DNA of 64,000 nt from Pseudomonadota bacterium (GTDB taxonomy: Bacteria; Desulfobacterota; Desulfobulbia; Desulfobulbales; CALZHT01). Every line of letters starts with the position of its first letter. Positions within the stretch are counted from its first letter, which is position 1. Where the stretch lies: positions 1,767 through 65,766 of the forward strand of contig JAHJJF010000097.1 of the NCBI GenBank assembly GCA_018823135.1. The letters are read 5' to 3'. Below, piece after piece: positions 24,037-63,602 of the stretch. The notes under the pieces are model-generated. The model saw nothing but the letters and a program-made list of their open reading frames with translations. It made no database searches and was not told the origin of the DNA. The position numbers were made by a program, and so were the translations under genes.

Positions 24037-24096
24037 TTTATATACCAAATCGTAATCAATAGCCCGACACACTCAAATCATTGGATACCAAAAATA

Positions 24097-50167: not shown

Positions 50168-52291
50168 TTAAAAATGCGCGGCAATCTCTGCCCAGAAACT
50201 TCTGCCTTCCATGGGATAATCATTGGGTACATACGCTCCTTCTGGCACTGCAGGGGCATAGGGGCTGGGGATACGACCGATCTCATCAAAAAGGTTGCGT
50301 ACCGCTAGGGCCATGTCCCAATGCCTGGAGATATTCTTACGCCTTAAAGTCAGGTTGACAAGTTCATAATCTTCGATATCAGACCGTGGATCACCTGCAG
50401 CACGGTGGCGGTCAGCGATCCAGTAAAATTGGCTATCCAGGGACCAGTCTTTCATAAAAGCCCAGTGAGGGTTCAGATAGAATTGCTGGCCCGGCGCATC
50501 CGGCACCAGACTGTCGGTATCTATATATCTCGAACGCTGTCGGGCATAGTTGGCACGCAGCAAGAGGCTGTCCATAATCTCCCAGTCCATCTCAAATTCT
50601 AAGCCCTGCCCATTCTGTTCGCCGTAGTTGGTATACGGCTGCGGCAATGCCCCTGTGAGCTGGATAATATTCTTGGCCTCGTAGGCATAGACACTGGTTA
50701 CAAGGCGCAGGTTTCTGAGGGGCTGGTAGTCCACGGCCAGCTCCAGGGTCTCGATCTCCTCCGGGTCCAGGTCCGGATTACCTGTGACCTGGAGATTATT
50801 TTTGACCCATTGCTCTCCAAAGGCAGGAGCGCGGAAGGCCTGGCCATACATAAGTTTGGTGATCAGATCGTAACGGGTCTCCCAGACCAGGGCAGCCCTG
50901 GGATTGGTAGTTGAACCGAAATCACTGTACTCGTCATAACGGACACCGGCCGTAAGTTCCCAGCCCTTGGCAAAACACCATTCATCCTGGATTACGCCAA
51001 AAAAAAGCCTGCGGTTGGCGTCATTCATGTAAATATGGTCCGGATCCGTGACATGAACCAGGTCTCCGAACTGGTCAGCCCCGGCGGCCGGGCCAAAGTT
51101 TTTATACTGGTCCGGTTCATAATCATAATTCTTCCATCCCGCCACCAGTCGCAATTGGTGGTCGCGGAAGCCTGTGTAGAGGCTGCTCAGTTCGACGCCA
51201 CCATCCTGGCTTTCACTGATCGGATTGCCCTGCATATTAAGAAAGGCCGGCGGCAATTGCTGTAAAAAAGTATCAGCGTGAAAATAGGAATAATAGAGCC
51301 GGCCATAAAGCTGCCAGTCTTGGAGTACCTTATTTTCATAGTTGAGGTCAGCCAGCAGGCTGGTTCTATCAATCTCATTGCCATCAGTGAGGGCCTGCAG
51401 ACTTCCAAGGCCCGCGGCCGTTTCCTGCAGGTTGGAGTAGAGGTTGAGGTTCCAGTTGTCCTTGCGTAGATTGAGATGAGTATCCAGTAATTCGTAAGAG
51501 GTGTCAATGGGGCCAGGTGCATCGGATTTAGTCGGATCGGCCGGAGGCAGGCCAGGGGCTGAGGTATGAACAAAATCTTTGTCAATGATCCGGTCCTTAT
51601 CGCCTGAAGTTTTTTGCCACTCAAGGCCTAAGGCCAGTTTCCAGCCGCCATAGTTTGCGCCATGCTGGAGCCATACATCGCTGGTATCAAAGGAGCCGTA
51701 ACGGGCGCCTGATTTGGTGCCCGCCAACTCCTGACCGTTCTTGATAATGACATTGATCACCCCGGAAAAAGCGTCGGCGCCATGCAGTGCCGAGCCAGGC
51801 CCCCGGATCACTTCCACCCGGGAGATCATGGCCACCGGCATTTTAAAGGCGGAACCCCGGCCGCCCGTATAGTTGCTGGTAAAAGGCACGGAATTAATCA
51901 GCAGCAGGACATGAGGGTTGGAGACTGCATGAATGCCGCGAATAGACCAGATCGACCCCAAAAAAGCGGTGCCTGAAGGCTCCACATGGAGGCCCGGCAC
52001 CGCCTCCAAGACTTGATCGAGTGTGGTAGCCCCCATTTTTTCAATCTGCTCGGAGGTAATGACCGTGGTCACCGATGGTGCAAGTTTGAGAGGTTTTGAG
52101 TTGCCGGTGGCAAGGGTGACTTCAAGTTCAATAAGCTGCTCGATATCCATGGAAAGAAGCTGTTCCATGTTCAGTTGTTGCTCATCTGCAATGGCGGGAC
52201 TGTGAAGGGAAATAATGAGAGTTAATAAGGCAAACGACAGGCGAATAACGTTATACAAATGCATATATTTTTTTACAGAGAAATATCGCAT
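50168..52291 (-). CDS. TonB-dependent outer-membrane receptor
   Basis: It has a signal peptide, a plug region (APSVTTVITSEQIEKMGATTLDQVLEAVPGL and RGPGSALHGADAFSGVINVI), a long beta-barrel and a C-terminal aromatic residue (…AAHF). Confidence 0.88.
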   Translation of the reverse strand: MRYFSVKKYMHLYNVIRLSFALLTLIISLHSPAIADEQQLNMEQLLSMDIEQLIELEVTLATGNSKPLKLAPSVTTVITSEQIEKMGATTLDQVLEAVPGLHVEPSGTAFLGSIWSIRGIHAVSNPHVLLLINSVPFTSNYTGGRGSAFKMPVAMISRVEVIRGPGSALHGADAFSGVINVIIKNGQELAGTKSGARYGSFDTSDVWLQHGANYGGWKLALGLEWQKTSGDKDRIIDKDFVHTSAPGLPPADPTKSDAPGPIDTSYELLDTHLNLRKDNWNLNLYSNLQETAAGLGSLQALTDGNEIDRTSLLADLNYENKVLQDWQLYGRLYYSYFHADTFLQQLPPAFLNMQGNPISESQDGGVELSSLYTGFRDHQLRLVAGWKNYDYEPDQYKNFGPAAGADQFGDLVHVTDPDHIYMNDANRRLFFGVIQDEWCFAKGWELTAGVRYDEYSDFGSTTNPRAALVWETRYDLITKLMYGQAFRAPAFGEQWVKNNLQVTGNPDLDPEEIETLELAVDYQPLRNLRLVTSVYAYEAKNIIQLTGALPQPYTNYGEQNGQGLEFEMDWEIMDSLLLRANYARQRSRYIDTDSLVPDAPGQQFYLNPHWAFMKDWSLDSQFYWIADRHRAAGDPRSDIEDYELVNLTLRRKNISRHWDMALAVRNLFDEIGRIPSPYAPAVPEGAYVPNDYPMEGRSFWAEIAAHF

Positions 52292-52324
52292 AGAACACCA
52301 TCACGAGAATGAAGTAACTTTTTG

Positions 52325-52341
52325 AATTATTACAAATAATT
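52325..52341. promoter_or_regulatory. AT-rich 7-3-7 palindrome in the divergent intergenic region (candidate operator)
   Basis: AATTATT-ACA-AATAATT is a perfect inverted repeat. It lies 34 nt upstream of the minus-strand receptor start and 224 nt upstream of the ferredoxin gene. It resembles Fur-type AT-rich boxes only loosely. Confidence 0.25.
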
Positions 52342-52564
52342 AAACAATAATTTTATACATGTCAATATATCAATTCCTTTGCCTGTAATTATGTGATCAA
52401 ATCAATACGATTCTGCAAATATCAATGGCCAGAGCCGGCTTTTGGGAGGCGCAGCAAAATAATATTTTTTGTTAATCGGAATTGAAACTCAAGAAAAGTG
52501 TTGTATAGTTGACTAGTTTTATTAACAGAATTTTTAATAGCCAACCATCGCGGTTTATTCTTAA

Positions 52565-53323
52565 ATGCAATACGCAATGCTCATAGATTTGAACAGATGT
52601 ATCGGCTGTCATTCCTGTGCCGTGGCCTGCCGGGCAATCTGGCAGGTGCCGGTGCCGCACCAGAGAAGCTGGGTCCATCGACTCGGGCCTGCTGAAACTC
52701 CGTTCGGCCTTGCTTCAACCTATTATCCGGGGCATTGCAACCAATGTGACAAACCTGCCTGTATCCCGGTCTGTCCGGTCACGCCTGTCCCCAAAGAATT
52801 TCGCCATCAGGGGACCGGACTGGCAAAGACAATCCAGGTTTCCGCTACTTGGAAAAACCCATTCAACGGGATTGTCGAGATTGATAAATCAAGATGCATC
52901 GGTTGCGGAGCCTGTGTTAAGGGATGCCCGTATAATGCACGTTTTGTGAATGATGCGAAAAAACCACTCAAAGCTGATAAATGCGATTTCTGCCAGGGGC
53001 GACTGGATCAGGGACTTGAACCATTTTGTGTTGAAACCTGTATCGGCAGCGCCAGGATTTTCGGCGATATCACAGACCCGCAATCAGCAATATCTCAGTA
53101 CATAAAGGATGGCGCCATAAAGCTCGAATCCCCGGATGTCCGAATTGGCCCCAATGTGTTGTATTCCGGAAATAAACGAGACATCTATCTGCTCACCGAA
53201 ACCAGCACTCCAAGCCTGTTGCCCCAAGTCTCCCAACGCCGGATCATTTTAGGGGAACTGGTGAAACCATCATCACAACGATTGAACAAAGCTGTTTCGT
53301 CTGAAAACCGCAAATTATCCTGA
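52565..53323 (+). CDS. Four-cluster [4Fe-4S] ferredoxin of the DmsB/PsrB/NrfC/NapG type
   Basis: The N-terminus is MQYAMLIDLNRCIGCHSCAVAC. Further Cys groups are CNQCDKPACIPVCP, CIGCGACVKGCP and CDFC...FCVETC. There is no Tat signal and no adjacent molybdopterin or membrane subunit. Confidence 0.85.
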   Translation: MQYAMLIDLNRCIGCHSCAVACRAIWQVPVPHQRSWVHRLGPAETPFGLASTYYPGHCNQCDKPACIPVCPVTPVPKEFRHQGTGLAKTIQVSATWKNPFNGIVEIDKSRCIGCGACVKGCPYNARFVNDAKKPLKADKCDFCQGRLDQGLEPFCVETCIGSARIFGDITDPQSAISQYIKDGAIKLESPDVRIGPNVLYSGNKRDIYLLTETSTPSLLPQVSQRRIILGELVKPSSQRLNKAVSSENRKLS

Positions 53324-53588
53324 TTTGTTTTCCTTCTTGATAATCAAATCTGACAGTTCATCCCCCTGCCTAAAGAATAGAATCTTTTTAAGATCAAAGA
53401 AACATTCTTCGTTTTTTTGATTAGCCCTCCTTTATTTTTTCTCCAGCCGCACCACAAAGTTGATGCGACAATTTGCCACATTTTCAGCCTTATTAAGAAA
53501 TGTTATCTTCCCGTCCAACTACCACATCGTGGCAGTCTGCTGTTTGCTTCAATAAATAACGTAATTTCAGGAAGAAGGGGAGGGGGTT

Positions 53589-55721
53589 TTGAAAAAGAGC
53601 ATATTACTCGCAACTGCAGTTGTTCTTGCCATGCAATCAAATGCCGGTGCTGAAGAAGTGAAAAAAGAACTTGACGAGGTAAGTGTCACCGCAACCAGAA
53701 TCGAAAGAAAGACTGCCGAAGTCCCGGCGTCAATTGCAGTGATTTCCGAAGAGCAGATTAACGATACCAAGATGTTCAATGTTAAGGAAGCCCTCACCGG
53801 CACTCCTGGAGTGTTAATCGAGACGACCAATCAGGGATATGACTCGCGACTGATTATTCGCGGCGCTGGTCTTAAAGCTGCTTATGGAGTTCGCGAGATC
53901 ATGGTGCTCCGCGATGGAGTTCCGGTGACCGACCCGGATGGCATGACCCGCCTTGATATGGTCGACACGCAGAACATCGAGCGCATCGAAGTGGTTAAGG
54001 GGCCGAACTCAACATTGTGGGGCGCCAATGCATCCGGAGGAGTCATAAACATCATCACAAAAAATCCGCTGGAAAGAAAAGGCGGCACCATAAAACTCGG
54101 AGCAGGAGATTTCGATACTTATAATCTGCATGCTTCCTATACCGATGACATATCGGAAAAACTCTATTACAGCGCCAGTCTTTCCAGGCGAGAGACCAGT
54201 AACTCATGGCGACGCTGGAATGAATTCGAAACCACCCAGTTGAGCGTCCAACCGTATGTGGTTCTGGATGACGGGTCAACCTGGGAGAATAATATCAGCT
54301 ACTCCAAGGCTGATCTGCAGTTGTCCGGATCCCTTGACGAAGCCATGTTCCAAGAATACCTGCAAACCGGAGAAGCTAATCAAACAACAGGACAGTGGCA
54401 GTATTCGGGGCGCTATTCCGATTCGTATTTTGTAAGTTCGAAAGTCACCAAGGAATTGGGAGATTTGGAATTTATCCCTCTCGTCTATGTCAATTACTGG
54501 GAACACCATCACCCGGTAACCGGCAGGATCAACGATGCCGAAACCTGGACCATGGGAACTGATTTCCAGTTCAATTACAAGCATAAGGTTGCTAGCGAAG
54601 CAGCCACAATGACTGTTGGTATTACGGTCAGATTTGATGACCAGAAAACCGAGTACTATAAATATGCTGACATTGCATTAGGGGTAGATCCTCCGGGTCC
54701 AAGTCCGGCCCCGATAGATCATGTATTGTCTGATGCTGTGGGAGATCATATGGAAACACAGACCCGGGAAGCGCTTCTTTACGGGCTTTATGTACAGGAA
54801 TCCTTTTCCCCCGTTAAAAAAACCGTGGTTGATGTCGGCGCACGAGTTGATGTGATTGATTTCAAAATTATCAGTAATGCGGATTGGGAATACAATTGGG
54901 GAACGAAAAATTATGGTATTCCAAGTGTACCGTATACTGAAACGAATAAGAGCTATACCGCATTCAGCCCGAGAATCGGTGCCAACTACGAGCTGACCGA
55001 GCAATTTCATACTTTCATAAGTGCATCAACCGGGGTCAATACACCCAGTGAGAGCGAAATAAACGACAACCCGAACCTGGAAATGGTGGAAACCCAAAGT
55101 TACGAACTGGGGCTTAAAGGGCGAGGGGGAAATTGGACCTTTGATTCCTCGGTATACTATTCACCAGTAAAAAATGAGGTTGTCAAGGTTGCCCAATCTG
55201 ACCATACCGACTATGTCAATGCCGGAAAAACCCTGAAAAAGGGTTTTGAGTTTGCCGGTTCCTACACTCTTCTTGATAGTCTAAACATAGGTACCAGCTA
55301 TACCTATTCCGACTACACTTTTGAAGAATTTAATGAACCGACTGGTTCTTACGTTTTTCCAATAGGGATGGTCTATCAGGATAATTTCAGAAACGGTAAT
55401 CGATTGCCGTATATACCGGTACATCAATATTCCCTTTTTGCTTCCTACAAGCATCAGACCGGTTTCAAGGCGAAAATTCAATCGCATACCTGGGGTTCCT
55501 ATTACATGGACAATGCCAATACAGAGAAGTACGAAGGGTATGATTTTGTGACCAACCTAATGCTGGGTTACGAAACCTCCAGATACGATTTCAGCGTCAA
55601 TATTGATAACCTTTTTGATGATCAGTATGCCGTTGAGGTAACCAAGGATCTTGCCCTTGTAAAAAGCTACAAGCCTGGTGCACCGAGAACCATCATGGCC
55701 CGTGTGAATCTGAAATTTTAA
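53589..55721 (+). CDS. TonB-dependent outer-membrane receptor
   Basis: A TTG start follows a strong AGGGGAGGGGG Shine-Dalgarno sequence. The signal peptide is LLATAVVLAMQSNAGA. The plug region includes DEVSVTATRIERKTAEVPASIAVISEEQI and VKGPNSTLWGANASGGVINIIT. The C-terminus is NLKF. Confidence 0.9.
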   Translation: MKKSILLATAVVLAMQSNAGAEEVKKELDEVSVTATRIERKTAEVPASIAVISEEQINDTKMFNVKEALTGTPGVLIETTNQGYDSRLIIRGAGLKAAYGVREIMVLRDGVPVTDPDGMTRLDMVDTQNIERIEVVKGPNSTLWGANASGGVINIITKNPLERKGGTIKLGAGDFDTYNLHASYTDDISEKLYYSASLSRRETSNSWRRWNEFETTQLSVQPYVVLDDGSTWENNISYSKADLQLSGSLDEAMFQEYLQTGEANQTTGQWQYSGRYSDSYFVSSKVTKELGDLEFIPLVYVNYWEHHHPVTGRINDAETWTMGTDFQFNYKHKVASEAATMTVGITVRFDDQKTEYYKYADIALGVDPPGPSPAPIDHVLSDAVGDHMETQTREALLYGLYVQESFSPVKKTVVDVGARVDVIDFKIISNADWEYNWGTKNYGIPSVPYTETNKSYTAFSPRIGANYELTEQFHTFISASTGVNTPSESEINDNPNLEMVETQSYELGLKGRGGNWTFDSSVYYSPVKNEVVKVAQSDHTDYVNAGKTLKKGFEFAGSYTLLDSLNIGTSYTYSDYTFEEFNEPTGSYVFPIGMVYQDNFRNGNRLPYIPVHQYSLFASYKHQTGFKAKIQSHTWGSYYMDNANTEKYEGYDFVTNLMLGYETSRYDFSVNIDNLFDDQYAVEVTKDLALVKSYKPGAPRTIMARVNLKF

Positions 55722-55727
55722 AGGAAT

Positions 55728-56762
55728 ATGTATATGAAGGCCTTCATTAAAACACTTACGATTGCCTCATTCTTGCTGATTCTACCTCTGGTCTCAATGG
55801 CATCAATCAGCAAGGATGAACTCTGGTTCTCCGCCATGCCCAAAATGACGCATGAATCAGGGCATGACACGAATCGGCCTGCCGGGAAAAAATCCGGCGG
55901 TCGACCCGGGGGAGCTGATACCGGGCATTCCGCTCATGAGTCGGAGCATCGTCCCAAGCCGGAAAGGACTTACTGGCTCAACTCCTGCGGCATAACAGAA
56001 GATGCAAAGGCGTTTCTGCTCAGGCCGGAAGGAGAGGTTCTCCCGGTGCCGATTAAACGAGAGGAACATGAGGTAAGTGTTAAGGTGAAAACCCCTTTTG
56101 GCGAAGGGCCTGCCCACGGCGCAAATAATGTCTATCTGGCAGATCAGTTTGTTGACGGAAAAACCCTCTATGCAAATTCTGCCAAATGGCTGACCATTCA
56201 TCATAATTGCGGCTGGGGCCATGAGCATAAATTCAACAAGAAGCGTTTGCTCCCGCAGTCTTATTCTATAATCCCTCTGGAGATTGTTGTAGATAATCTC
56301 TGGGACTCAAACTTCCATTCCACCGTCATGTCCGGGGACACCATCTCGCTACAGGTACTATCCTTTGGAAAACCTGCTGCGAAAGCAACTGTGACAATTG
56401 AATCCGATCGGGGCTGGAAAAAACAGATCACCACCGATGAGCAGGGCAGGGCAAGTTTTCAGATGGTCAGGGATTATTATCCTGATGCCTGGAATTTGTT
56501 TAATAGAAGTAAACCGGGAAAATTTAAATTGTCCGCCCTTTATTCCGGAAACATACGGGGTGAATATAATGGCCAATCCTATGAAAATGCAAAAATGACC
56601 TCGACATTTACCTGGCGCTATTACCCGGCAAGGAATGAATACGTCTCCTACACTTATGGACTCATCGCAGCCTTTCTTGCTCTGACGTTCAGCGGATTAG
56701 GTGTCTACATCTATCGCGAGAGACGTAAAAAACCGTATAAAGAGATAACGCTCAAAGAATGA
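55728..56762 (+). CDS. His-rich periplasmic protein with a DUF4198/transthyretin-like beta-sandwich and a C-terminal membrane anchor
   Basis: The gene starts 6 nt after the receptor stop. It has a signal peptide and a His-rich stretch, THESGHDTNRPAGKKSGGRPGGADTGHSAHESEHRPKPE (55848-55964). The beta-sandwich-like segment is GDTISLQVLSFGKPAAKATVTIESDRGWKKQITTDEQGRASFQM. The C-terminal TM helix is YGLIAAFLALTFSGLGVYIY. The family assignment is tentative. Confidence 0.55.
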   Translation: MYMKAFIKTLTIASFLLILPLVSMASISKDELWFSAMPKMTHESGHDTNRPAGKKSGGRPGGADTGHSAHESEHRPKPERTYWLNSCGITEDAKAFLLRPEGEVLPVPIKREEHEVSVKVKTPFGEGPAHGANNVYLADQFVDGKTLYANSAKWLTIHHNCGWGHEHKFNKKRLLPQSYSIIPLEIVVDNLWDSNFHSTVMSGDTISLQVLSFGKPAAKATVTIESDRGWKKQITTDEQGRASFQMVRDYYPDAWNLFNRSKPGKFKLSALYSGNIRGEYNGQSYENAKMTSTFTWRYYPARNEYVSYTYGLIAAFLALTFSGLGVYIYRERRKKPYKEITLKE

Positions 56763-56922
56763 CGGATTACTGAAAAATCCGTCTTACCGATTAAGGAGGG
56801 CTAAGTAAAAATTCGATATACAAGGAGTATTGGTGGCACAAAAGCGGAGGCATATGTTTAAGATGTCGAGCATTTTGGGTACCGGTACGACACAGTAGAT
56901 CGGACTCTTTACAACGCCATCA

Positions 56923-57903
56923 ATGAATAAGTTTCGTAAATGGATCAACAATACAGATATCAACCGGTTCCGTTTCTGGTTCCAGTTGGCAAGTTTTATT
57001 CTGCTCATTTATGGAGGATTGCTGGCAATCAATATCGGCGACCGATTGCCGACCTTTGCCTGTGTGTTTGATAATCTTCGGGGCGGCTCCTGCTATCTCA
57101 TGGGATTTCAGCATCAGACCAATATCCCTTTCAAGCAGATTTTCTCAGGCAGAGGCATAGGCCTGTTTATCGGGCTTGCCACCTTTATCGGTTTTTTTCT
57201 GTTATTCAACAAGGCCTGGTGCGGTTTTGCCTGTCCTTTGGGCGCGTTGCAGGACTGGATCACCATGATCCGCAAAAAAATGAACATCCGCTACAGCGTC
57301 TATTCGAAACCGGAATTTGCCAGGCTGAAAACGATCAAATACTTCCTGCTCGCCCTGCTGATTCTGATTCCGCTGGGCATGAGCAATTCGGTCTTCGGTC
57401 TGCCAAAGCTCAGCCATGATTTTGCCATACCGTTCTGCATGATCTGCCCCGGCCGCACGCTTCTGCCGGTTTTTACCGGTGATTTTTCACAACTGGCCAT
57501 TGATTTCAGCTCAAAAACCAAGCTGGTTTTTACGGCGCTGGGCATGGCGATAACCGGATTATTCTTAAGTGGTTCATTTTTCAAGAAACGCTTTTTCTGT
57601 CTTTTCTGCCCGATGAGCGCCTTTCATTACATTTTCCATAAGGCCGCAGTGCTGCGACTGAGCAAGGATGGCGAAAAATGTACGCAATGCGGCAACTGCT
57701 ACCGGGTCTGCGATGTGGGAATCCGCGATATTGCAGAAGACATTGTAAGCAGAAATATTGTCAAGGATGATTGCATGATGTGCTTTAAATGTGTTGCTGC
57801 CTGTCCCGAGGAAAACTGTCTCAGTGTGAACCTTTATGGGATCCCGGTTTACGATTCCACCGCAGAAGGATTTTTTGAACGGATGTCCAGGAGGAATAAA
57901 TGA
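56923..57903 (+). CDS. NapH/NosR-C-terminal-like polytopic membrane protein with two cytoplasmic [4Fe-4S] motifs
   Basis: It has at least 4 TM helices with CX3CP and CX2CP motifs (WCGFACPLG and FFCLFCPMS). Two ferredoxin motifs lie at the C-terminus (CTQCGNCYRVC and CMMCFKCVAACP). Confidence 0.7.
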   Translation: MNKFRKWINNTDINRFRFWFQLASFILLIYGGLLAINIGDRLPTFACVFDNLRGGSCYLMGFQHQTNIPFKQIFSGRGIGLFIGLATFIGFFLLFNKAWCGFACPLGALQDWITMIRKKMNIRYSVYSKPEFARLKTIKYFLLALLILIPLGMSNSVFGLPKLSHDFAIPFCMICPGRTLLPVFTGDFSQLAIDFSSKTKLVFTALGMAITGLFLSGSFFKKRFFCLFCPMSAFHYIFHKAAVLRLSKDGEKCTQCGNCYRVCDVGIRDIAEDIVSRNIVKDDCMMCFKCVAACPEENCLSVNLYGIPVYDSTAEGFFERMSRRNK

Positions 57904-59171
57904 ACACTGACCGTGCAGAACGAGTGAGAAGATCAACCGCGCTTCATATTTCAATGGAAATCGACAGCGTTCTTCAGAAAATCGAAGGCGAGTTTTATGA
58001 TAATCCCGCGGCCATGATCTATTTTTATGATTTTTTCAGAACGTATCTCTCGGAAAAATTCTTTACTCCGTCAATACCGGTTATCGGCACAATGTGCGTC
58101 CAGGTTCCTGATGAAATCATTTATGCACTTGGCGCCAGACCGCAAAGGATTTGTTGCGGCATTTCCACCTGCGAGCAGGTGGGTGCTGAATTCATGCCGT
58201 CGAAAGCCTGCCCGGTTGTCAAAGCCACCACCGGAAACCTTTCGGCAAATAAGGAGATTCTCTCCAGATACTTCAGCGCAATCGTCATTCCCTCTACCTG
58301 CGATCAGAAGCGGAAAAGCGCCGAAACTCTTTCTGCAATGGGTTACAAGGTGATCATGCTTGAAATGCCCCTCACCAGAAACAGTGATATGGCCGTGCAG
58401 TACTGGCATGAATCAATAAAGAAACTGGTCATTGATCTTCAAAAAGTCACTGGCAAGACATTAACCTCTAAAAATCTTCAAGGGGCCATCGGCAAAGTCG
58501 GTCAGGCACAAAAAGTTTTCCGTGAACTTTATGATTTGAGAAAATCCGACCCGCCGGTAATAACCGGCAAGGATGTTTTGATGGTCAACAACGCCTATTT
58601 TCTTGATGATATAGAGAGCTGGACCGATGCGGTATCCACACTGAATTACGAACTGACAAGATGCAAAAAAAAATCCATGCATGTTGGACTTAAAAATGCT
58701 CCAAGGATTCTGCTCACCGGATCACCGCCGATTTTTCCCAACCTCAAAGTTCCTTTGATGCTGGAACAATCAGGCGCAGTAATCGTTGCCGATGAAGTCT
58801 GTTCTTCAACCAGGCTTCTTTACGACACTGTTGCCTATGATGAACCAAAGCTCTATGACATGGTCCCGGCTATTGCCGATCGCTATCTCAAAGCCAGCAC
58901 CTGTCCATGCTTTACACCCAATGATAATCGCCTTCGGAGACTTCTGGAAATGACCAGGGATTTCAGGGTTGACGGCGTTGTCTATCAGGCTTTCTCCGGA
59001 TGCATGCCCTATGAAATGGAACAGAAGAAGATAAACGACATGCTGGCCGCCCACGGCATTCCCATGCTCTATGTTGAAACGGATTACAGCCCCGAGGACC
59101 AGGGGCAGCTTTCAACCAGGATCGAAGCGTTTATCGAATCAATAAAAGCCAGAAACCGCAAAGCATCCTGA
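57900..59171 (+). CDS. Single-subunit 2-hydroxyacyl-CoA dehydratase family protein (double-cubane-cluster-protein-like)
   Basis: The start overlaps the upstream stop (ATGA). The 423-aa protein has an HGD-D-family N-terminal pattern (IPVIGTMCVQVPDEIIYALGARPQRICCG) and multiple conserved-looking Cys residues (STCEQ, KACPV, STCDQ, EVCSS, STCPC and SGCMPYE). No second (beta) dehydratase subunit gene is nearby. Confidence 0.7.
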   Translation: MNTDRAERVRRSTALHISMEIDSVLQKIEGEFYDNPAAMIYFYDFFRTYLSEKFFTPSIPVIGTMCVQVPDEIIYALGARPQRICCGISTCEQVGAEFMPSKACPVVKATTGNLSANKEILSRYFSAIVIPSTCDQKRKSAETLSAMGYKVIMLEMPLTRNSDMAVQYWHESIKKLVIDLQKVTGKTLTSKNLQGAIGKVGQAQKVFRELYDLRKSDPPVITGKDVLMVNNAYFLDDIESWTDAVSTLNYELTRCKKKSMHVGLKNAPRILLTGSPPIFPNLKVPLMLEQSGAVIVADEVCSSTRLLYDTVAYDEPKLYDMVPAIADRYLKASTCPCFTPNDNRLRRLLEMTRDFRVDGVVYQAFSGCMPYEMEQKKINDMLAAHGIPMLYVETDYSPEDQGQLSTRIEAFIESIKARNRKAS

Positions 59172-59228
59172 TAATGACCTGCTCTGCGACAAGGAATGCA
59201 AGGTCTCCGAGCTGCCTGGGATTAGAAG

Positions 59229-59326
59229 TCCGAATCCAGGAGCCAGAAGTCCGAAGAAAGAAGAGGTAAGTACATATTGGATTTCAGGTCGTTCTGGATA
59301 CAGACTCCTGGCTCCTGGATTCCGGG
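59229..59326 (+). promoter_or_regulatory. Long-stem intercistronic hairpin between the dehydratase-like and activase genes
   Basis: GAATCCAGGAGCCAG (59232-59246) is perfectly complementary to CTGGCTCCTGGATTC (59308-59322). The stem extends through AAGTC/GACTC with one mismatch, and the loop is about 50 nt. A direct repeat of AGAAGTCCGAA lies at 59224 and 59246. The hairpin sits in a 216-nt gap within an otherwise overlapping operon. Confidence 0.5.
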
Positions 59327-59387
59327 CCAAGACGCATCAAGCTGTTGAGTATTGGCCCCCAACAAAGGATAATAAGGTGAATTAACC

Positions 59388-60203
59388 ATGAAATATTTTG
59401 CTGGAATTGATATAGGATCAACCTCGATAAAAATTGTCATAATCGACAAATCCGGAACCGTAATCGCCCATAAAACCGCTGCTACCGGCAGCCTCTTTAA
59501 CAAGAATACCCTGAAGGCCTTTAATGATCTCCTTGTTGATAAGAAGATCGCCAGATATGAGATTGGCTATGTTGTATCAACCGGTTACGGCAGAAAATTA
59601 TTCAAGGACTCCGATGAATCAATCAGTGAGATTACCGCAAATGCAATGGGCGCGAGAAAAATTGCCGAGGCAACCGGTGTTCGGACAATAATCAATATCG
59701 GCGGCCAGGATCTCAAGGTCATTCACCTTGACGAGGCAGGCCATATCATCAATTTTGCGATGAATGACAAATGTGCTGCCGGCACCGGACGTTTCCTTGA
59801 AATGACCGCCCGGAATCTTGAGATAGAGGTCGATGAATTGGGCGATTATCACCTGAACAATTCCGGCATTCCCATTACGATCAACAGCACCTGTACGGTT
59901 TTTGCCGAATCAGAGATCATCGGTCTTATGGCCAATGGCCGTTCCAAAGAAGAAATTGTTGCAGGTATTCATTACTCAATCGCCCGAAGAGTAGCACGCC
60001 TGGCAAGAAGATTCGGAGTGCAGGAAACGGTGTTTTTTGATGGCGGACCTGCCCTGAATCAAGGACTGATTCAAGCGTTGGAAGATGAACTGATGTGCAG
60101 TGTCATTGTTCCTGAAATGCCACAGATCACCACGGCGTTGGGGGCAGCACTCATTGCCAGAAATGCATTTATTGATGAAAAGGAAAACGTCAATGCTGCA
60201 TGA
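59388..60203 (+). CDS. BcrAD/BadFG/HgdC-type ATP-dependent activase (archerase) with a bridging [4Fe-4S] site
   Basis: The ASKHA N-terminus is YFAGIDIGSTSIKIVII, and GGQDLKVI is present. The two cluster-ligand Cys contexts are NDKCAAGTGRFLE and NSTCTVFAESE. The length is 271 aa. Confidence 0.85.
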   Translation: MKYFAGIDIGSTSIKIVIIDKSGTVIAHKTAATGSLFNKNTLKAFNDLLVDKKIARYEIGYVVSTGYGRKLFKDSDESISEITANAMGARKIAEATGVRTIINIGGQDLKVIHLDEAGHIINFAMNDKCAAGTGRFLEMTARNLEIEVDELGDYHLNNSGIPITINSTCTVFAESEIIGLMANGRSKEEIVAGIHYSIARRVARLARRFGVQETVFFDGGPALNQGLIQALEDELMCSVIVPEMPQITTALGAALIARNAFIDEKENVNAA

Positions 60204-60807
60204 AACTCTGTCTATTTTTGTTCTGGGTACGATCAGCGGAATAACTGTTTGCAGTTTTTCCTGTCTACCTTTTCTAGGTCCTTTTTTATTGAGCACTGGG
60301 CAAGGGTTTAAAGACGGAGTATCATCGACGGCACTTTTTATTATCGGCAAGATTGCGGCGTACACTGTTTTAGGGTGTCTGGCAGGTTTACTGGGGCAGG
60401 TCCTGGCTTTTGAATCATCTGGTGCAATGCGTTTTATTCTTGGTGTGCCGCTTATCATAACCGGTTTGTCACTGCCGTTTATACATAAAGCAGGATGTGG
60501 AAAGTGTCACGGCAGATCAATATCATTCTTCGGACTGGGCCTGATTACAAGTCTGGTACCTTGCCCCGCGCTTACCGCGGTATTTGCTCTGGCGGCGAAA
60601 GACGGCAGCATTCTTAATGGCGCCCTGTATGGATTGTCATTCGGTTCAGGGTTGATCATCTCGCCACTACTTATAATCGGCGGCGGGTTGTCAGTGATTT
60701 CTTCAAAAATTAAACTGGAAGCAGCCAGAATCATGCCGGCAATACAAGTCATCAGCTGTATAATAATGGTTCTTCTGGGTACAAGAATACTATTTACGGA
60801 GGCATAG
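60193..60807 (+). CDS. DsbD_2/CcdA-like polytopic membrane protein (thiol-disulfide electron conduit or LysE-superfamily metal transporter)
   Basis: The likely start is MLHETLS at 60193, overlapping the activase stop by 11 nt. The ORF-track start at 60100 lies inside the activase gene. The protein has about 6 TM helices with Cys-Pro motifs in TM1 (VCSFSCLPF) and a later helix (LVPCPAL). Confidence 0.6.
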
Positions 60808-60808
60808 G

Positions 60809-61234
60809 ATGGAGTGGCTTAAATACACCATAGATTACGGCATCATTGGTCTTCTGGTGATCATGAGTTTTGTGGCCGTGGCAATAGCTGTGGAAAGATT
60901 TCTTGCCTATAAAAAGATACAGATAAGTGATTTTGCCGACAAACGAGAACTGGAGCTGTTTCTCACCGGGCGCTTGCATCTTATTGCAACCATCGGCAGC
61001 AATGCCCCCTATATCGGGCTGCTTGGTACGGTGCTGGGCATCATGCTGACCTTTTACACCATGGGCAAAACCGGTTTCATGGATACCGGAAAAATCATGG
61101 TGGGCCTTGCCCTTGCCTTGAAGGTCACCGCCGCAGGGCTCATTGTCGCGATTCCGGCCATTGTTCTCTACAATCTTCTGCAAAGAAAGGTTCGCGTTTT
61201 ACTCCTGCAATGGGACATCGCAAATGGAAGATAA
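60809..61234 (+). CDS. exbB: MotA/TolQ/ExbB-family proton channel (short ExbB)
   Basis: The gene starts 1 nt after the upstream stop. Its motifs are [17 protein letters not shown] and [24 protein letters not shown]. Confidence 0.8.
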
Positions 61235-61601
61235 AGGCTTTGATACGATAAATGTCATCCCGCTGGTTGACGTGATGCTGGTACTCTTGACCATAGTGCT
61301 CACCACATCGACTTTTATTGCGGTGGGAGCAATCCCTGTCCAGTTGCCGCAGGCATCTGCCGCAGCGGAACAGCAATTAAAGAGCACGACGATCTCCATT
61401 GATAAGAGCGGCAGTATTTTTCTGGATAATCAACTGGAATCAAAGGCCAGCCTTCGCAAAAACATGATTTGCAAGTCCAGAGAAATTCCTGTGGTGATAA
61501 GGGCTGACAAGGATATCGCCCTGCAATTATTCGTCGATGTAATGGATATTGTCAAGGATCTGGGCTTTCAGAAAGTAAGCCTGCAAACGGAAAAGACATG
61601 A
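61224..61601 (+). CDS. exbD: ExbD/TolR-family protein
   Basis: The likely start is [22 protein letters not shown] at 61224, overlapping exbB by 11 nt. It has a single TM helix plus a periplasmic domain ([26 protein letters not shown]). Confidence 0.8.
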
Positions 61602-62401
61602 CACGAAATCACTTATCCGCATACGGCTTTTCATTTATCTTTCATGCCGTATTTATTGCCTTGATATTCACTCTTGGCAATCTCTTGCCATTGGAGCAAA
61701 CCCCGCTGGTCATTGATTTCAGCATCCTCAGCGGCAATGAATCCGTGCCGGTCATTAATCCAGCTGCCAAGCCTGAACAACCGAAAGTTGTGAAACAGAT
61801 CCAGCCTGCGACACCAAAACAAAAGAAGATTGTCAAAAAGCCGCCGAAGATTGAAGAAAAGAAGATTGTGGCGGTGAACAAACCTGAGCCCCTTCCCATA
61901 GCTCCGGTCATTGAAGAAAAACCAATGGAAAAAGAAATCGTTGCTGAAGTTGAACCAATTAAACCTGAAATTGCCGAACAAACAGAAATGGAAGAAATAA
62001 TTCCATTGCCGGATGCGGAATTTGCTGAAAACCAGACACCTTCTGACGTGCCTCCAATGGAAGCGGTCAACAATTTCAACGATGCGGCGTTAAATGAAAA
62101 AGCTTCCTACGGATACTCAAAACAACAGTATCTGAAAGCCCATTTTGACTACATCAAGAATGACATCCAGAAAAAGGTTGTCTACCCGCGCATGGCAAGA
62201 AAAATGGGCTGGCAGGGCAGGGTGCTTCTATCTTTTGTTGTTTGTGAAGACGGGTCGATCAAAGATGTAAAAATCATCGAAAGTTCTGGTTATTCCCTGC
62301 TTGATGCAAATGCCGTGAAAACCGTTCAATCCGCTGCACCATTCCCGGTTCCGCCGATCCGTGCTGAAATCATCATCCCCATCTCTTATGCCCTTGTCTG
62401 A
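61598..62401 (+). CDS. tonB: TonB energy transducer
   Basis: The start overlaps exbD (ATGA). It has an N-terminal TM helix and a Pro/Lys/Glu-rich spacer (PEQPKVVKQIQPATPKQKKIVKKPPKIEEKK...). The TonB_C domain is YPRMARKMGWQGRVLLSFVV.EDGSIKDVKIIESSGYSLLDANAVKTV. Confidence 0.85.
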   Translation: MTRNHLSAYGFSFIFHAVFIALIFTLGNLLPLEQTPLVIDFSILSGNESVPVINPAAKPEQPKVVKQIQPATPKQKKIVKKPPKIEEKKIVAVNKPEPLPIAPVIEEKPMEKEIVAEVEPIKPEIAEQTEMEEIIPLPDAEFAENQTPSDVPPMEAVNNFNDAALNEKASYGYSKQQYLKAHFDYIKNDIQKKVVYPRMARKMGWQGRVLLSFVVCEDGSIKDVKIIESSGYSLLDANAVKTVQSAAPFPVPPIRAEIIIPISYALV

Positions 62402-62654
62402 ATTTTCCAAATCTGGTTGAAAACCTATCGTTCATATGCAATCTGCCATTTCTTGAGCAGCACGCGAACCCTTGTTTTGGGGGGATCCATCTAATATTTC
62501 AAGCTTCCAGAATAAATGAAATGTTGCGTCAAGAAGAGTCAAGCAAAGACCAGACCTCCTGAGTTATGCCGCCATTCTGTCCTTTTTGTTTCTTTGCACA
62601 CCTGGGTTAATATGGTATACGTATAATAATCAAACAAACCATATTAAAGGATGA

Positions 62655-63602
62655 GTGATGAACTATATTTCCTCTGAAATCCTGAACCGACTGGATGAAA
62701 AACTGTCCAGGTTGAATTCCTTCCGGCCCTTGCCGCAAACTGCTGTCCGTAAGCTGCAGGAACAATTCGAACTGGAAATGACCTACAATTCAAATGCCAT
62801 TGAGGGCAACAGTCTGACTCTCAAGGAAACCTTTCTGGTCATTAACCAAGGCCTGACGATCAAAGGAAAACCTCTCAAGGATCACTTGGAGGCCAAGGGG
62901 CACACAGAAGCACTTGAATACCTCTATGATTTGACAGCCCAAGACCCCCCGGCCCCATTAACCGAAAGAATAATCAGGGAACTTAACGGGATTGTCATGC
63001 GCAACATTGATCAGGAATGGGCCGGCAGATACCGTAACAGTAATGTTATCATCGGCGGCGCCACATACACACCGCCGGAAGCCTTTGAAGTTCCCCGATT
63101 GATGGAGGAATTGCTCAGTTGGGCAAACAGCGCCGGGCAAAACCTGCACCCGGTTGAATTGGCCGCTGTTTTTCATCATCGTCTCGTGTACATTCATCCT
63201 TTTTACGACGGCAATGGCCGCACCACCCGGTTGACAATGAATGTCATCCTGCTCAAGGCGGGATTTCCATTGGTGGTGATCCTGAAAAACGATCGACGAA
63301 GATATTACCGTTTACTGGGTGAGGCCGACCGTGGCAACTTGAGACCCTTCGCCGGTTTTATCGCCCAGACGGCCCAAAGGACACTGGATATCTATCTGAA
63401 GGTGCTGACTCCGGACCGGAAATCCAAAGAGAAATTCATTGCCCTGGTCGATCTGGCGAAGCACTCCAGGTTCTCGGCTAAATACCTCAATCTCCTGGCC
63501 CGTGCCGGCAAGCTTGAAGCTCACAAGGAAGGCCGCAACTGGCTTTCATCAAAAGAGGCGCTCAGGAGGTACCTGGATGGGAGGGAAAGAAAAAGGAAAT
63601 AA
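62655..63602 (+). CDS. Fic family protein (AMPylase-type) with an N-terminal inhibitory-helix motif and a C-terminal HTH-like tail
   Basis: The Fic motif HPFYDGNGRTTR lies at 63195-63230. The [S/T]xxxE[G/N] motif is SNAIEGN. The C-terminal DNA-binding-like segment is LVDLAKHSRFSAKYLNLLARAGKLEAHKEGRNW. The ATG at 62658 may be the true start. Confidence 0.85.
   Translation: MMNYISSEILNRLDEKLSRLNSFRPLPQTAVRKLQEQFELEMTYNSNAIEGNSLTLKETFLVINQGLTIKGKPLKDHLEAKGHTEALEYLYDLTAQDPPAPLTERIIRELNGIVMRNIDQEWAGRYRNSNVIIGGATYTPPEAFEVPRLMEELLSWANSAGQNLHPVELAAVFHHRLVYIHPFYDGNGRTTRLTMNVILLKAGFPLVVILKNDRRRYYRLLGEADRGNLRPFAGFIAQTAQRTLDIYLKVLTPDRKSKEKFIALVDLAKHSRFSAKYLNLLARAGKLEAHKEGRNWLSSKEALRRYLDGRERKRK

What the first reader, a model, noticed from the sequence alone, without database searches (positions are those of the whole stretch)
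53589..62401. Nine-gene TonB-energised operon that embeds an ATP-driven low-potential reductase pair and redox membrane proteins instead of an ABC permease
Seen in sequence, nine same-strand genes encode:
- a TonB-dependent receptor;
- a His-rich anchored periplasmic protein;
- a NapH-like membrane Fe-S protein;
- a 2-hydroxyacyl-CoA-dehydratase-family protein;
- a BcrAD/BadFG-type activase;
- a DsbD_2-like membrane protein;
- ExbB, ExbD and TonB.

The junctions indicate translational coupling: a 6-nt gap (55721/55728), an ATGA overlap (57900-57903), an 11-nt overlap (60193-60203), a 1-nt gap (60807/60809), an 11-nt overlap (61224-61234) and an ATGA overlap (61598-61601). No periplasmic binding protein or ABC permease/ATPase is present.

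Established knowledge: TonB-dependent uptake loci normally pair the receptor with an ABC importer. Activase-dependent dehydratase or double-cubane proteins are among the strongest biological reductants. DsbD-type proteins pass reducing power across the membrane and belong to the LysE superfamily, which also contains Ni/Co and other metal transporters.

Inference: this is an uptake system in which the imported substrate (metal chelate, tetrapyrrole or other) is reductively processed or released. It would be energised twice, by proton-motive force through TonB and by ATP through the activase. I am not aware of a described system of this kind.
Basis: partly seen in the sequence, partly recalled or inferred. 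Interest (0 to 1): 0.85.

Follow-up and report, generated by a model that had tools for sequence, protein, structure and literature searches.

The report
TonB uptake operon with double-cubane reductase
A conserved operon of sulfide-zone bacteria joins an outer-membrane importer and a periplasmic metal-binding protein to a membrane iron-sulfur protein and an ATP-powered "double-cubane" reductase whose natural job is unknown, which gives a testable clue that this enzyme helps cells free a scarce metal.

Summary
Nine same-strand genes at 53589-62401 encode a TonB-dependent receptor, a membrane-anchored DUF4198-fold metal-binding protein, a NapH-like Fe-S membrane protein, a double-cubane-cluster protein (DCCP, all seven Cys), its activase, a DsbD_2/CcdA-like protein, and ExbB, ExbD and TonB.

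The block recurs in the same order in at least 13 independent loci at 25-75% protein identity. These include cultured Desulfurivibrio alkaliphilus, and a diverged, rearranged variant occurs on a 44%-GC contig of unknown taxonomy.

New findings:
- The invariant core is DUF4198-like + NapH-like + DCCP + activase. DsbD_2 is missing in D. dismutans, and the receptor is only 22-28% identical between loci.
- Natural fusions join a NapH-like module, NosL and the DUF4198-like domain in one polypeptide.
- A 17-bp RegA/SpdR-type operator abuts the -35 of the operon promoter. Cognate RegB/RegA-like genes flank the cluster in three genomes. The same operator precedes other receptors and NosL, YcnI, MbnP and SCO1 genes.

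Best reading (about 0.4): a redox-regulated trace-metal acquisition system, with copper favoured. The DCCP/activase pair feeds low-potential electrons through the NapH-like protein to the periplasmic metal site.

Cargo and electron direction are inferred. No prior description was found. I rate it a new variant of a known kind.

The parts
53464..53480 (+). Operator TGCGACAATTTGCCACA. It is a RegA/PrrA/SpdR-type site (CTGCGAC-N5-GYCRCA) that abuts the -35.
   Evidence: Present upstream of the receptor gene in W, L001, L003, L005, L006, L131, L132, L133 and L135. It occurs once in the 64-kb window. Its left half-site is identical to the EMSA-supported SpdR site CTGCGAC-N5-GTCGCAG (PMC4830024).
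53481..53509 (+). Predicted sigma-70 promoter: -35 TTTTCA (53481-53486) and extended -10 TGT-TATCTT (53501-53509).
   Evidence: In 110 dereplicated motif loci, a TAnnnT sits at fixed positions +40 to +45 from the motif start (T 81, A 85, T 80 of 110), and TTsyCA sits at +17 to +22. The window sequence was read.
53589..55721 (+). TonB-dependent receptor (710 aa, TTG start).
   Evidence: Plug 91 bits and barrel 133 bits. The nearest NCBIfam model is the generic siderophore-receptor subfamily TIGR01783, at 206 bits against a cut-off of 223.5. It is only 24-28% identical to the receptors of orthologous clusters.
55728..56762 (+). DUF4198-fold periplasmic metal-binding protein. It has a signal peptide, a His-rich arm, a C-terminal TM anchor and a conserved cytoplasmic tail.
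   Evidence: The AF2 model (pLDDT 79) best matches Zcp with Zn (9MHL, E 7e-9, TM 0.62) and 9GCB with Ni. Invariant motifs are ESEHRP, HGAN, HHNCGWGH, LWDxNFH and YRERRKKPY.
56762..56784 (+). 8-bp stem hairpin just after the stop codon, inside a 160-nt gap that orthologous loci lack.
   Evidence: No T-tract follows on the + strand.
56923..57903 (+). NapH-like four-TM Fe-S membrane protein.
   Evidence: Fer4_5 + Fer4_10. NapH/MauN TIGR02163 scores only 69 bits against a cut-off of 213. All 17 Cys are invariant in 7 orthologues, including pairs in both predicted periplasmic loops (C47/C57, C172/C175). It is the most conserved gene of the block at 67-72% identity.
57900..59171 (+). Double-cubane-cluster protein (DCCP).
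   Evidence: NF040772 at 348 bits. The best PDB sequence matches are 7YYL/6ENO at E about 1e-64. Cys66/85/104/134/301/335/368 have the published spacing (motif from 10.1101/2022.07.06.499078).
59232..59322 (.). Imperfect inverted repeat (31-nt arms, 81% complementary) inside a 216-nt gap that orthologous loci lack.
59388..60203 (+). BcrAD/HgdC-type ATP-dependent activase.
   Evidence: TIGR00241 at 242.6 bits against a cut-off of 125.4. Cys129 (DKCAAGTG) and Cys169 (STCTVF) are present.
60193..60807 (+). DsbD_2/CcdA-like six-helix membrane protein. It is an accessory part, not in every cluster.
   Evidence: PF13386 at 67 bits. The AF2 model (pLDDT 71) best matches CcdA 5VKV (E 0.022, TM 0.5). 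Invariant residues are C20, C24, C102 and P123-C124. It is absent in L133 and L137.
60809..61234 (+). ExbB (short exbB2 type).
   Evidence: TIGR02805 at 158.9 bits against a cut-off of 135.
61224..61601 (+). ExbD.
   Evidence: PF02472 at 88 bits.
61598..62401 (+). TonB.
   Evidence: TonB_C at 73 bits.

Best explanation
This is a redox-regulated trace-metal acquisition and release system.

Proposed steps:
1. A RegB/RegA-like two-component system switches on one promoter (inferred from the operator).
2. The TonB-ExbBD-energised receptor brings a scarce metal, probably as a chelate, into the periplasm.
3. The metal is captured by the membrane-anchored DUF4198-fold protein (His-rich arm plus an invariant His/Cys site).
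4. That protein works as one unit with the NapH-like Fe-S membrane protein. The arrangement resembles a split version of the CcoG/NosR design: a membrane polyferredoxin plus a periplasmic domain.
5. On the cytoplasmic side, the activase uses ATP to load low-potential electrons onto the double-cubane protein. These electrons pass to the NapH-like clusters and on to its conserved outward-facing Cys sites.
6. There they reduce the bound metal or its ligand, so that the metal is released for periplasmic chaperones (NosL type) or for entry through the Cys-lined DsbD_2 protein where it is present.

Copper, or another thiophilic metal, is the favoured cargo.

Shown: gene content, conservation, the fusions, the operator and its gene neighbourhoods.
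Inferred: the metal, the direction of electron flow, and that the DCCP donates to the NapH-like protein.
For: - The core DUF4198-like, NapH-like, DCCP and activase genes are contiguous, mostly overlapping, in every locus seen.
- Natural fusions join NapH-like + DUF4198-like (P0296) and NapH-like + NosL + DUF4198-like (P0342). Both sit directly upstream of NapH-like, DCCP and activase genes.
- The DUF4198-like protein has the fold of Zn- and Ni-binding DUF4198 proteins (PMC12663993) and invariant His/Cys motifs.
- Its C-terminal TM anchor and YRxRRxKP tail are kept even in the distant fusions.
- The NapH-like protein keeps Cys pairs on both membrane faces, plus two ferredoxin motifs.
- The operator matches the SpdR/RegA-type site. 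RegB/RegA-like genes flank the cluster in L001, L006 and L132.
- In L132 the same operator precedes two NosL operons next to the cluster.
- Among 147 dereplicated proteins downstream of the operator, Pfam finds 20 receptor plugs, 3 NosL, 3 DUF1775/YcnI and 2 SCO1. MbnP was also found.
- DsbD_2 is dispensable. This fits metal use or release in the periplasm.
Against: - There is no experimental datum.
- Electron flow from the DCCP outward through the NapH-like protein has no precedent. Characterised DCCP reduces small molecules at its own cluster (PMC7317905).
- Cu(II)/Cu(I) chemistry does not need a very low potential, and in sulfidic habitats copper is already Cu(I).
- The receptors resemble generic siderophore receptors, not OprC/NosA copper receptors.
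- The RegA-type regulon also holds multihaem cytochromes, rhodaneses and other redox proteins, so it is not metal-specific.
- The window itself carries no RegB/RegA gene.
- Some clusters lack the operator (L130) or use an OmpR-type system instead (L136, L137).
Confidence: 0.4

Rival explanations
1. The cargo, or a small ligand of it, crosses the inner membrane through DsbD_2 or the NapH-like protein. The DCCP then reduces it in the cytoplasm at its own double-cubane cluster. The NapH-like protein serves as the membrane electron donor (quinol or ferredoxin side) to the activase.
For: - Known DCCP chemistry is substrate reduction at the cluster.
- A preprint already proposes that DCCPs reduce compounds imported by a neighbouring ABC transporter, the SAO system (10.1101/2022.07.06.499078).
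- DsbD_2 is present in 12 of the 14 independent loci that extend past the activase gene. It has conserved TM Cys and a CcdA-like fold.
Against: - DsbD_2 is missing in D. dismutans and L137 although the rest is intact.
- The NapH-like, NosL and DUF4198-like fusions place the partner domain in the periplasm.
- A six-helix CcdA-like protein is an unlikely carrier for a chelate.
Confidence: 0.25
2. Iron or haem acquisition. The receptor imports a ferric siderophore (or haem). The low-potential DCCP/NapH-like chain performs the reductive release that ferric catecholates require. This would be analogous to periplasmic ferripyoverdine reduction or to FoxB.
For: - The receptors score closest to the siderophore-receptor subfamily TIGR01783, at 200-206 bits, just under the cut-off.
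- A very low potential is chemically needed only for such chelates (own knowledge).
- nifU-nifS follow the cluster in both Desulfurivibrio genomes.
Against: - There is no Fur-box-like site upstream (best match 11-12 of 19).
- The regulon and the fusions point to NosL, YcnI and MbnP type copper proteins.
- DUF4198 structures bind Zn or Ni.
Confidence: 0.12
3. Two unrelated modules share a promoter. One is a metal-capture module (receptor, DUF4198-like, ExbBD-TonB). The other is a separate redox module (NapH-like, DCCP, activase, DsbD_2), for example for envelope thiol or redox maintenance under oxidising conditions sensed by RegB.
For: - The RegA-type regulon is broad and redox-flavoured.
- The receptor is poorly conserved, and no receptor gene is seen on the short L137 contig.
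- The window has 160-nt and 216-nt gaps inside the block.
Against: - The DUF4198-like and NapH-like genes overlap in most loci and are fused in two lineages.
- The whole block travels together between different genomic neighbourhoods.
Confidence: 0.13

Closest known systems
Double-cubane cluster protein and its ATP-dependent reductase from Carboxydothermus hydrogenoformans (PDB 6ENO, 7YYL)
   Same: - One HGD-D-type subunit with the seven-Cys motif.
- A BcrAD/HgdC-type activase encoded alongside.
- It is the best sequence match in the PDB, at E about 1e-64.
   Different: The characterised protein is soluble, has no known physiological substrate and no described membrane or transport partners (PMC7317905). 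Here it always sits behind a NapH-like membrane protein and a periplasmic metal-binding protein.
CcoG/FixG cupric reductase and NosR (membrane polyferredoxins of the NapH superfamily with a periplasmic domain; own knowledge of Marckmann et al. 2019 and of the nos literature)
   Same: - A Fer4_5 CxxxCP membrane module plus two [4Fe-4S] motifs, working with a periplasmic beta-rich domain.
- An association with NosL and with RegA-type regulation.
- The fusions P0296 and P0342 reproduce the one-polypeptide layout.
   Different: - No CcoG, NosR or NapH model reaches its cut-off.
- The periplasmic domain is DUF4198-fold, not FixG_C or FMN_bind.
- None of those systems has a DCCP/activase partner or a dedicated TonB receptor.
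TonB-dependent metallophore uptake with reductive release by an inner-membrane reductase (ferripyoverdine FpvG system, FoxB; own knowledge)
   Same: An outer-membrane receptor, periplasmic handling and a membrane reductase, with no need to import the chelate.
   Different: Those reductases are haem or PepSY-type proteins fed from the respiratory chain. Here the candidate reductase is an Fe-S protein coupled to an ATP-driven low-potential donor.
DUF4198 periplasmic metal-capture proteins (Zcp of Neisseria gonorrhoeae, PMC12663993; Ideonella Ni-bound 9GCB)
   Same: The fold, the periplasmic location, His-based metal binding, and frequent linkage to TonB-dependent receptors.
   Different: - Zcp is soluble, Zur-regulated and monocistronic.
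- This family is membrane-anchored with a conserved cytoplasmic tail.
- It has its own invariant motifs (ESEHRP, HHNCGWGH).
- It is too diverged for a sequence-profile match to any PDB chain.
SAO locus with adjacent double-cubane proteins (preprint 10.1101/2022.07.06.499078)
   Same: An uptake transporter for a presumed metal-containing compound, genomically linked to DCCPs in anaerobes. This includes a Desulfobulbales species.
   Different: That locus is an ABC importer with selenoproteins and a MerB-like enzyme. It has no TonB receptor, DUF4198 or NapH-like protein, and the link there is looser (adjacent in 40% of genomes).
RegB/RegA (PrrBA, ActSR, RoxSR, SpdSR) redox-responsive two-component regulons
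   Same: - The operator has the form CTGCGAC-N5-GYCRCA.
- The kinase carries a GGxxNPF motif and aligns full-length to NF033792. The regulator is a receiver plus Fis-type HTH and aligns to NF033791.
- SCO1/SenC is in the regulon.
   Different: - Both proteins score below the equivalog cut-offs (168 against 250; 182-256 against 350).
- The hosts are anaerobic Thermodesulfobacteriota.
- The regulon is rich in TonB receptors and copper-chaperone-type genes.

Membership tests
Double-cubane cluster protein (NCBIfam NF040772) | Score at or above the curated equivalog cut-off (350 bits). | tested here: inconclusive
   348.0 bits, 2 bits short. The next family (BzdN) scores 111 bits.
Double-cubane cluster protein (NCBIfam NF040772) | Seven-Cys motif CX19CX18-19CX29CX166-170CX32-34CX32C. 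| tested here: met
   C66, C85/86, C104, C134, C301, C335 and C368, with spacings 18/19, 18, 29, 166, 33 and 32. All seven align with the Cys of 7YYL.
Double-cubane cluster protein (NCBIfam NF040772) | A single HGD-D-type subunit (homodimer), not an alpha/beta pair. | tested here: met
   There is only one HGD-D gene in the window block and in every related locus.
Double-cubane cluster protein (NCBIfam NF040772) | An [8Fe-9S] cluster and ATP-dependent reduction. | not testable with these tools
   This needs protein purification, EPR or crystallography, and activity assays.
BcrAD/HgdC-type activase (TIGR00241) | Score above the cut-off, and the two cluster-bridging Cys. | tested here: met
   242.6 bits against 125.4. 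Cys129 and Cys169 lie in the DKCAAGTG and STCTVF contexts. That these two Cys are the ligands is from my own knowledge.
TonB-dependent receptor | Plug domain, 22-strand barrel domain and N-terminal TonB box. | tested here: met
   PF07715 at 91 bits and PF00593 at 133 bits. The sequence DEVSVTATR follows the signal peptide.
TonB-dependent copper receptor OprC/NosA (TIGR01778) | A match to the equivalog model. | tested here: not met
   It is not among the hits for the window receptor or for the receptors of L003, L005, L132, L135 and L136.
DUF4198 (PF10670) | Pfam gathering score. | tested here: not met
   30.3 bits against 34, over a C-terminal stretch only. A profile of 22 homologues finds no PDB chain.
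DUF4198 (PF10670) | The fold of solved DUF4198 proteins. | tested here: met
   The top six Foldseek PDB hits are Zcp entries and 9GCB, at E 7e-9 to 1e-5, probability 1.0 and TM(target) 0.52-0.62.
DUF4198 (PF10670) | The three-His metal site of Zcp. | not tested
   No residue-level structural alignment was available. The family has its own invariant His74, His130, His159, Cys161, His165 and His197.
NapH/MauN quinol dehydrogenase subunit (TIGR02163, NF007013) | Score above the cut-off, and a NapG/NapC partner. | tested here: not met
   69 bits against 213, and 68 bits against 234. There are no nap genes nearby. It shares only the Fer4_5 + di-cluster architecture.
DsbD/CcdA-type membrane proteins | Pfam DsbD_2 match, and conserved Cys in TM1 and TM4. 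| tested here: met
   PF13386 at 67 bits against 24.9. Invariant C20/C24 (TM1) and P123-C124 (TM4).
DsbD/CcdA-type membrane proteins | CcdA fold and a thioredoxin-like periplasmic client. | tested here: inconclusive
   The best PDB fold hit is CcdA 5VKV, but only at E 0.022 and TM 0.5, from a pLDDT-71 model. No thioredoxin-like gene is in the block.
RegA/PrrA/ActR/SpdR-type regulated promoter | Operator of the form CTGCGAC-N5-GTCGCAG. | tested here: met
   The window has (A)TGCGAC-AATTT-GCCACA. The left half matches 6/7 with the preceding base counted, and the right half 4/6. Second copies read GCCGCA.
RegA/PrrA/ActR/SpdR-type regulated promoter | The cognate regulator binds and controls the promoter. 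| not testable with these tools
   There is only genomic linkage. RegB/RegA-like genes lie next to the operator in at least 23 of 120 metagenome loci and in L001, L006 and L132. None lies in this window.

The most novel reading that the evidence does not exclude
This would be the first physiological role for double-cubane proteins. The DCCP would act as an ATP-charged electron source, wired through a NapH-like polyferredoxin to a periplasmic metallochaperone. That would make ATP-driven low-potential reducing power available outside the cytoplasm, to strip a TonB-imported metal from an otherwise irreducible complex (for example a sulfide, polysulfide or chalkophore complex of copper, or a ferric catecholate).
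Probability: 0.2. Interest if true: 0.9.

Novelty: new variant of a known kind. Interest (0 to 1): 0.72.

Why it matters
- Double-cubane proteins are widespread in anaerobes and hold one of the most reducing biological cofactors, yet no natural substrate is known. A conserved, co-regulated and partly fused gene context gives a concrete hypothesis.
- That context also names cultured hosts in which to test it: Desulfurivibrio alkaliphilus AHT2, and D. dismutans as a natural DsbD_2-less variant.
- It would show how bacteria in sulfidic, metal-starved sediments obtain thiophilic metals.
- It would add a new way of powering periplasmic metal release.
- The RegA-type operator found on the way defines a large regulon that can be searched for in metagenomes. 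I found no description of it. It links redox sensing to TonB receptors and copper-chaperone-type genes.

Tried and rejected
- **Riboswitch or leader RNA:** there was no Rfam hit at the gathering threshold over the whole window, nor at E<=1 over 52200-62600. Control by B12, Moco or NiCo riboswitches is rejected.
- **Fur, Zur and NikR boxes upstream:** the best matches were 11-14 positions, no better than background, and there was no NikR pattern.
- **Conserved Cys/His/Met metal motif in the receptor:** none was found. Only one invariant His occurs among five receptors.
- **Sequence-profile link of the DUF4198-like family to solved structures:** none was found. Only the fold search worked.
- **Exact-string literature search for the operator:** it returned only cloning primers.
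- **Literature searches:** 'double-cubane' + TonB gave 0 papers. MbnP + response regulator + TonB gave 0. CoA dehydratase/TonB/ExbB/Desulfobulb gave 1 irrelevant paper. The cable-bacteria nickel paper does not mention the cluster.
- **The upstream TtrB-like 4Fe-4S gene (52565-53323) as a tenth member:** rejected, because it is absent from all orthologous loci.
- **The operator read as a sigma-54 promoter on the opposite strand:** rejected, because the GG-GC spacing is one base short and the orientation is wrong (reading).
- **Structure prediction of DsbD_2 from locus-derived homologues:** It was redone with database homologues.

Full report
**1. Observation**

The region 53589-62401 holds nine + strand ORFs exactly as described. 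Pfam and NCBIfam give these assignments:
- a TonB-dependent receptor (Plug + barrel);
- a 344-aa protein with a sub-threshold DUF4198 match;
- a NapH-like membrane protein (Fer4_5 plus two [4Fe-4S] motifs);
- an HGD-D protein whose best model by far is NCBIfam 'double-cubane-cluster-containing anaerobic reductase' (348 bits, cut-off 350; the next family scores 111 bits);
- an acyl-CoA-dehydratase-type activase (242.6 bits, cut-off 125.4);
- a DsbD_2 protein;
- ExbB (exbB2 type, above cut-off), ExbD and TonB.

- The gap at 56763-56922 holds a short hairpin.
- The gap at 59172-59387 holds a 31-nt-arm inverted repeat.
- Neither gap has a T-tract terminator.
- Orthologous loci have overlaps or abutting genes at these two junctions. 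The gaps therefore look like local insertions rather than operon boundaries.

No ABC transporter component lies in or beside the block.

**2. Conservation**

A scan of one genome per species with the DCCP found five loci, all in Desulfobulbales-type MAGs. The same gene order was present wherever the contig was long enough.

Protein searches gave these family sizes:
- 145 homologues of the DUF4198-like protein;
- 739 hits for the NapH-like protein, of which the best 120 are at least 64% identical;
- a profile search over 1.84 billion representative proteins found only 197 relatives of the DUF4198-like family. It is a rare, specialised family.

Gene neighbourhoods were fetched for ten further proteins. 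Every one shows DUF4198-like, NapH-like, DCCP and activase genes side by side. The flanking genes differ from locus to locus, so the block moves as a unit.

Identity to the window proteins is graded:

| Protein | Identity to window |
|---|---|
| NapH-like | 67-72% |
| Activase | 66-71% |
| ExbB | 68-76% |
| DCCP | 51-58% |
| DUF4198-like | 40-47% |
| DsbD_2 | 40-48% |
| TonB | about 30-35% |
| Receptor | 24-28% |

Two cultured hosts carry the cluster.
- Desulfurivibrio alkaliphilus has all nine genes.
- D. dismutans has the same locus in the same neighbourhood but without DsbD_2.

**3. The parts**

*DCCP.* Its best solved relatives are the C. hydrogenoformans double-cubane protein entries 7YYL/6ENO (E about 1e-64). 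By comparison, BzdN scores 6e-28 and the dehydratase beta subunit 1e-18. All seven cluster Cys are present with the published spacing (motif quoted). Only one HGD-D gene is ever present. It is therefore not an ordinary two-subunit dehydratase. The physiological function of DCCPs is stated to be unknown (PMC7317905).

*DUF4198-like protein.*
- It has a signal peptide, a variable His/Cys-rich arm, a beta-rich body, a C-terminal TM helix and a conserved basic cytoplasmic tail.
- Invariant motifs are ESEHRP, HGAN, HHNCGWGH and LWDxNFH.
- Its AlphaFold model (pLDDT 79) matches the Zn-, Cu- and Co-bound Zcp structures and a Ni-bound DUF4198 protein best.
- Zcp is a periplasmic metal-capture protein (PMC12663993).

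*NapH-like protein.* All 17 Cys are invariant. They comprise two CxxxCP/CxxCP motifs on the predicted cytoplasmic face, two ferredoxin motifs, and two further Cys pairs in the loops that the positive-inside rule places in the periplasm (the topology is my inference). It does not reach the NapH/MauN cut-offs.

*DsbD_2.* Cys residues are conserved in TM1 and TM4. A modest model finds CcdA as its best, though weak, structural match.

**4. Fusions**

Two longer proteins stand out among the representatives of the DUF4198-like family.
- P0296 (784 aa) is a NapH-like module followed by extra TM helices and the DUF4198-like domain.
- P0342 (909 aa) has the same layout with a NosL domain inserted.
- Both keep the C-terminal anchor and the YRxRRxKP tail.

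Their contexts show the rest of the system.
- L136 is a 44%-GC contig. Its proteins are 44-55% identical to the window's. The order is exbB-exbD-tonB (divergent), receptor, fusion, NapH-like, DCCP, activase, DsbD_2.
- L137 has fusion, NapH-like, DCCP, activase.

These fusions are the strongest evidence that the membrane Fe-S module and the periplasmic metal-binding domain work as one unit. They also show that NosL-type chaperones belong to the same process. Together with the D. dismutans case, they define the invariant core as DUF4198-like + NapH-like + DCCP + activase.

**5. Regulation**

Aligning the regions upstream of the receptor genes exposed a conserved sequence, TGCGACAATTTGCC(A/T)CATT. 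In the window it lies at 53464-53480 and occurs only once.

In 110 dereplicated loci:
- a TAnnnT element sits at a fixed +40 to +45;
- a TTsyCA element sits at +17 to +22;
- the 17-bp imperfect palindrome therefore abuts the -35 of a sigma-70-type promoter.

In the window the -35 is TTTTCA (53481-53486) and the -10 is TGT-TATCTT, ending at 53509.

The motif has the form CTGCGAC-N5-GYCRCA. Its left half is identical to the EMSA-supported site of Caulobacter SpdR, CTGCGAC-N5-GTCGCAG (PMC4830024). It also resembles the RegR boxes of Bradyrhizobium (PMC4064962). That SpdR belongs to the RegA/PrrA/ActR family is from my own knowledge.

The linked two-component system consists of:
- a kinase with the GGxxNPF motif, aligning end to end with the ActS/PrrB/RegB model;
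- a 176-aa receiver + Fis-HTH regulator, aligning with the ActR/PrrA/RegA model.

Both score below the equivalog cut-offs. These genes lie next to the motif in at least 23 of the 120 metagenome loci. They lie next to the DCCP cluster in L001 (divergent, with a second inverted operator), L006 and L132. The window itself has no such genes.

Downstream of the operator, Pfam on 147 dereplicated proteins finds:
- 20 receptor plugs;
- 3 NosL;
- 3 DUF1775/YcnI;
- 2 SCO1/SenC;
- TonB and ExbB;
- multihaem cytochromes, rhodaneses and C_GCAxxG_C_C proteins.

An MbnP was also seen. In L132, three operator-bearing promoters drive a NosL-ABC operon, a second NosL gene and the nine-gene cluster, directly followed by the RegB/RegA-like pair.

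Not all clusters use this control. L130 has no operator. L136 and L137 sit beside OmpR-type systems, and L136 has AGTGTTAAT repeats upstream.

**6. Interpretation**

The evidence fits a metal-acquisition device better than a catabolic one. It has a TonB receptor of the chelate-receptor class, a periplasmic metal binder, links to NosL/YcnI/MbnP/SCO1-type genes, and no catabolic enzymes.

The layout 'membrane polyferredoxin + periplasmic beta domain' is that of CcoG (a cupric reductase) and of NosR (own knowledge). This makes a metal-directed redox role for the NapH-like/DUF4198-like pair plausible.

The new element is the DCCP/activase pair, which is always next in line. I propose that it is the ATP-driven electron source for the NapH-like protein. 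This step has no precedent and is inference.

Copper is favoured by the NosL fusion and the regulon. Three facts keep iron and other metals open:
- the receptors are not OprC-like;
- copper chemistry does not obviously need such a low potential;
- the regulon is broadly redox-related.

The alternative is that the DCCP reduces an imported small molecule in the cytoplasm. That fits known DCCP chemistry and a published hypothesis for the SAO locus. It is weakened by the dispensability of DsbD_2 and by the periplasmic position of the fused partner domains.

**7. Novelty**

I found no description of this cluster. Its parts are known kinds, and TonB-dependent uptake followed by reductive release is a known principle. 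What is new:
- coupling to a double-cubane reductase through a NapH-like protein;
- the membrane-anchored DUF4198 family;
- the RegA-type operator regulon.

I rate it a new variant of a known kind. It has high interest because it makes the open question of DCCP function testable in cultured organisms.

Noticed in passing
window 53464-53509; loci L010-L129: The 19-mer TGCGACAATTTGCCWCATT marks a promoter class that is very common in metagenomes. The scan stopped at 120 loci. RegB/RegA-like genes are often adjacent. The downstream gene set is rich in TonB receptors and NosL, YcnI, MbnP, SCO1, multihaem cytochrome-rhodanese and C_GCAxxG_C_C/AMMECR1/radical-SAM genes. I found no description of this regulon.
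   Followed up: partly
window 53523-53536; L001, L003, L005, L131, L132 upstream regions: A second short palindrome, CCACAnnGTGG(T/C)A, recurs near or just after the -10 in several cluster promoters and in the C_GCAxxG_C_C promoters. It could be a second operator or a leader hairpin. It is unexplained.
   Followed up: no
window 5-4279 and 4264-18960: A 1424-aa multihaem cytochrome (c7/c3-type repeats; the ORF starts at the window edge) overlaps the start of a 4898-aa giant protein. The giant protein has DUF2341, Laminin_G_3, fn3, SBBP and sialidase-N domains.
   Followed up: no
window 22921-26357: A YeeE/YedE-like sulphur-transport protein, a NosD-like beta-helix 'periplasmic copper-binding' protein and an MFS transporter lie in a row. 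This is another possible metal/sulphur handling locus in the same genome.
   Followed up: no
window 47111-52291 (- strand): A separate receptor module: a TonB-dependent receptor (707 aa), a DUF4154/YfiR-like protein and a CHASE8-PAS hybrid histidine kinase. It is unrelated to the finding.
   Followed up: partly
window 52565-53323: An orphan TtrB/DsrO/NrfC-like four-cluster ferredoxin lies just upstream on the same strand. It has no catalytic partner and no obvious Tat signal. It is not conserved next to the cluster elsewhere.
   Followed up: yes
window 61182-61233 and 62426-62477: A 52-nt inverted repeat (73% complementary) brackets exbD-tonB. It may be chance.
   Followed up: no
L136 6985-7152: Three direct AGTGTTAAT repeats plus an inverted copy lie between the divergent exbB and receptor genes, beside an OmpR-type two-component system. 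This is a likely alternative operator for the same cluster in another lineage.
   Followed up: no
L007 7689-10001 and L001 2541-4644: The receptor gene is truncated in L007 and split by a frameshift in L001, while the rest of the cluster is intact. This is either MAG assembly error or receptor decay.
   Followed up: no
L133 and L135, downstream of tonB: In both Desulfurivibrio genomes the cluster is followed by nifU-nifS (Fe-S assembly) and preceded by uvrC.
   Followed up: no
window 62655-63602: A Fic-domain protein gene lies immediately downstream of tonB. It is not conserved in the other loci.
   Followed up: partly
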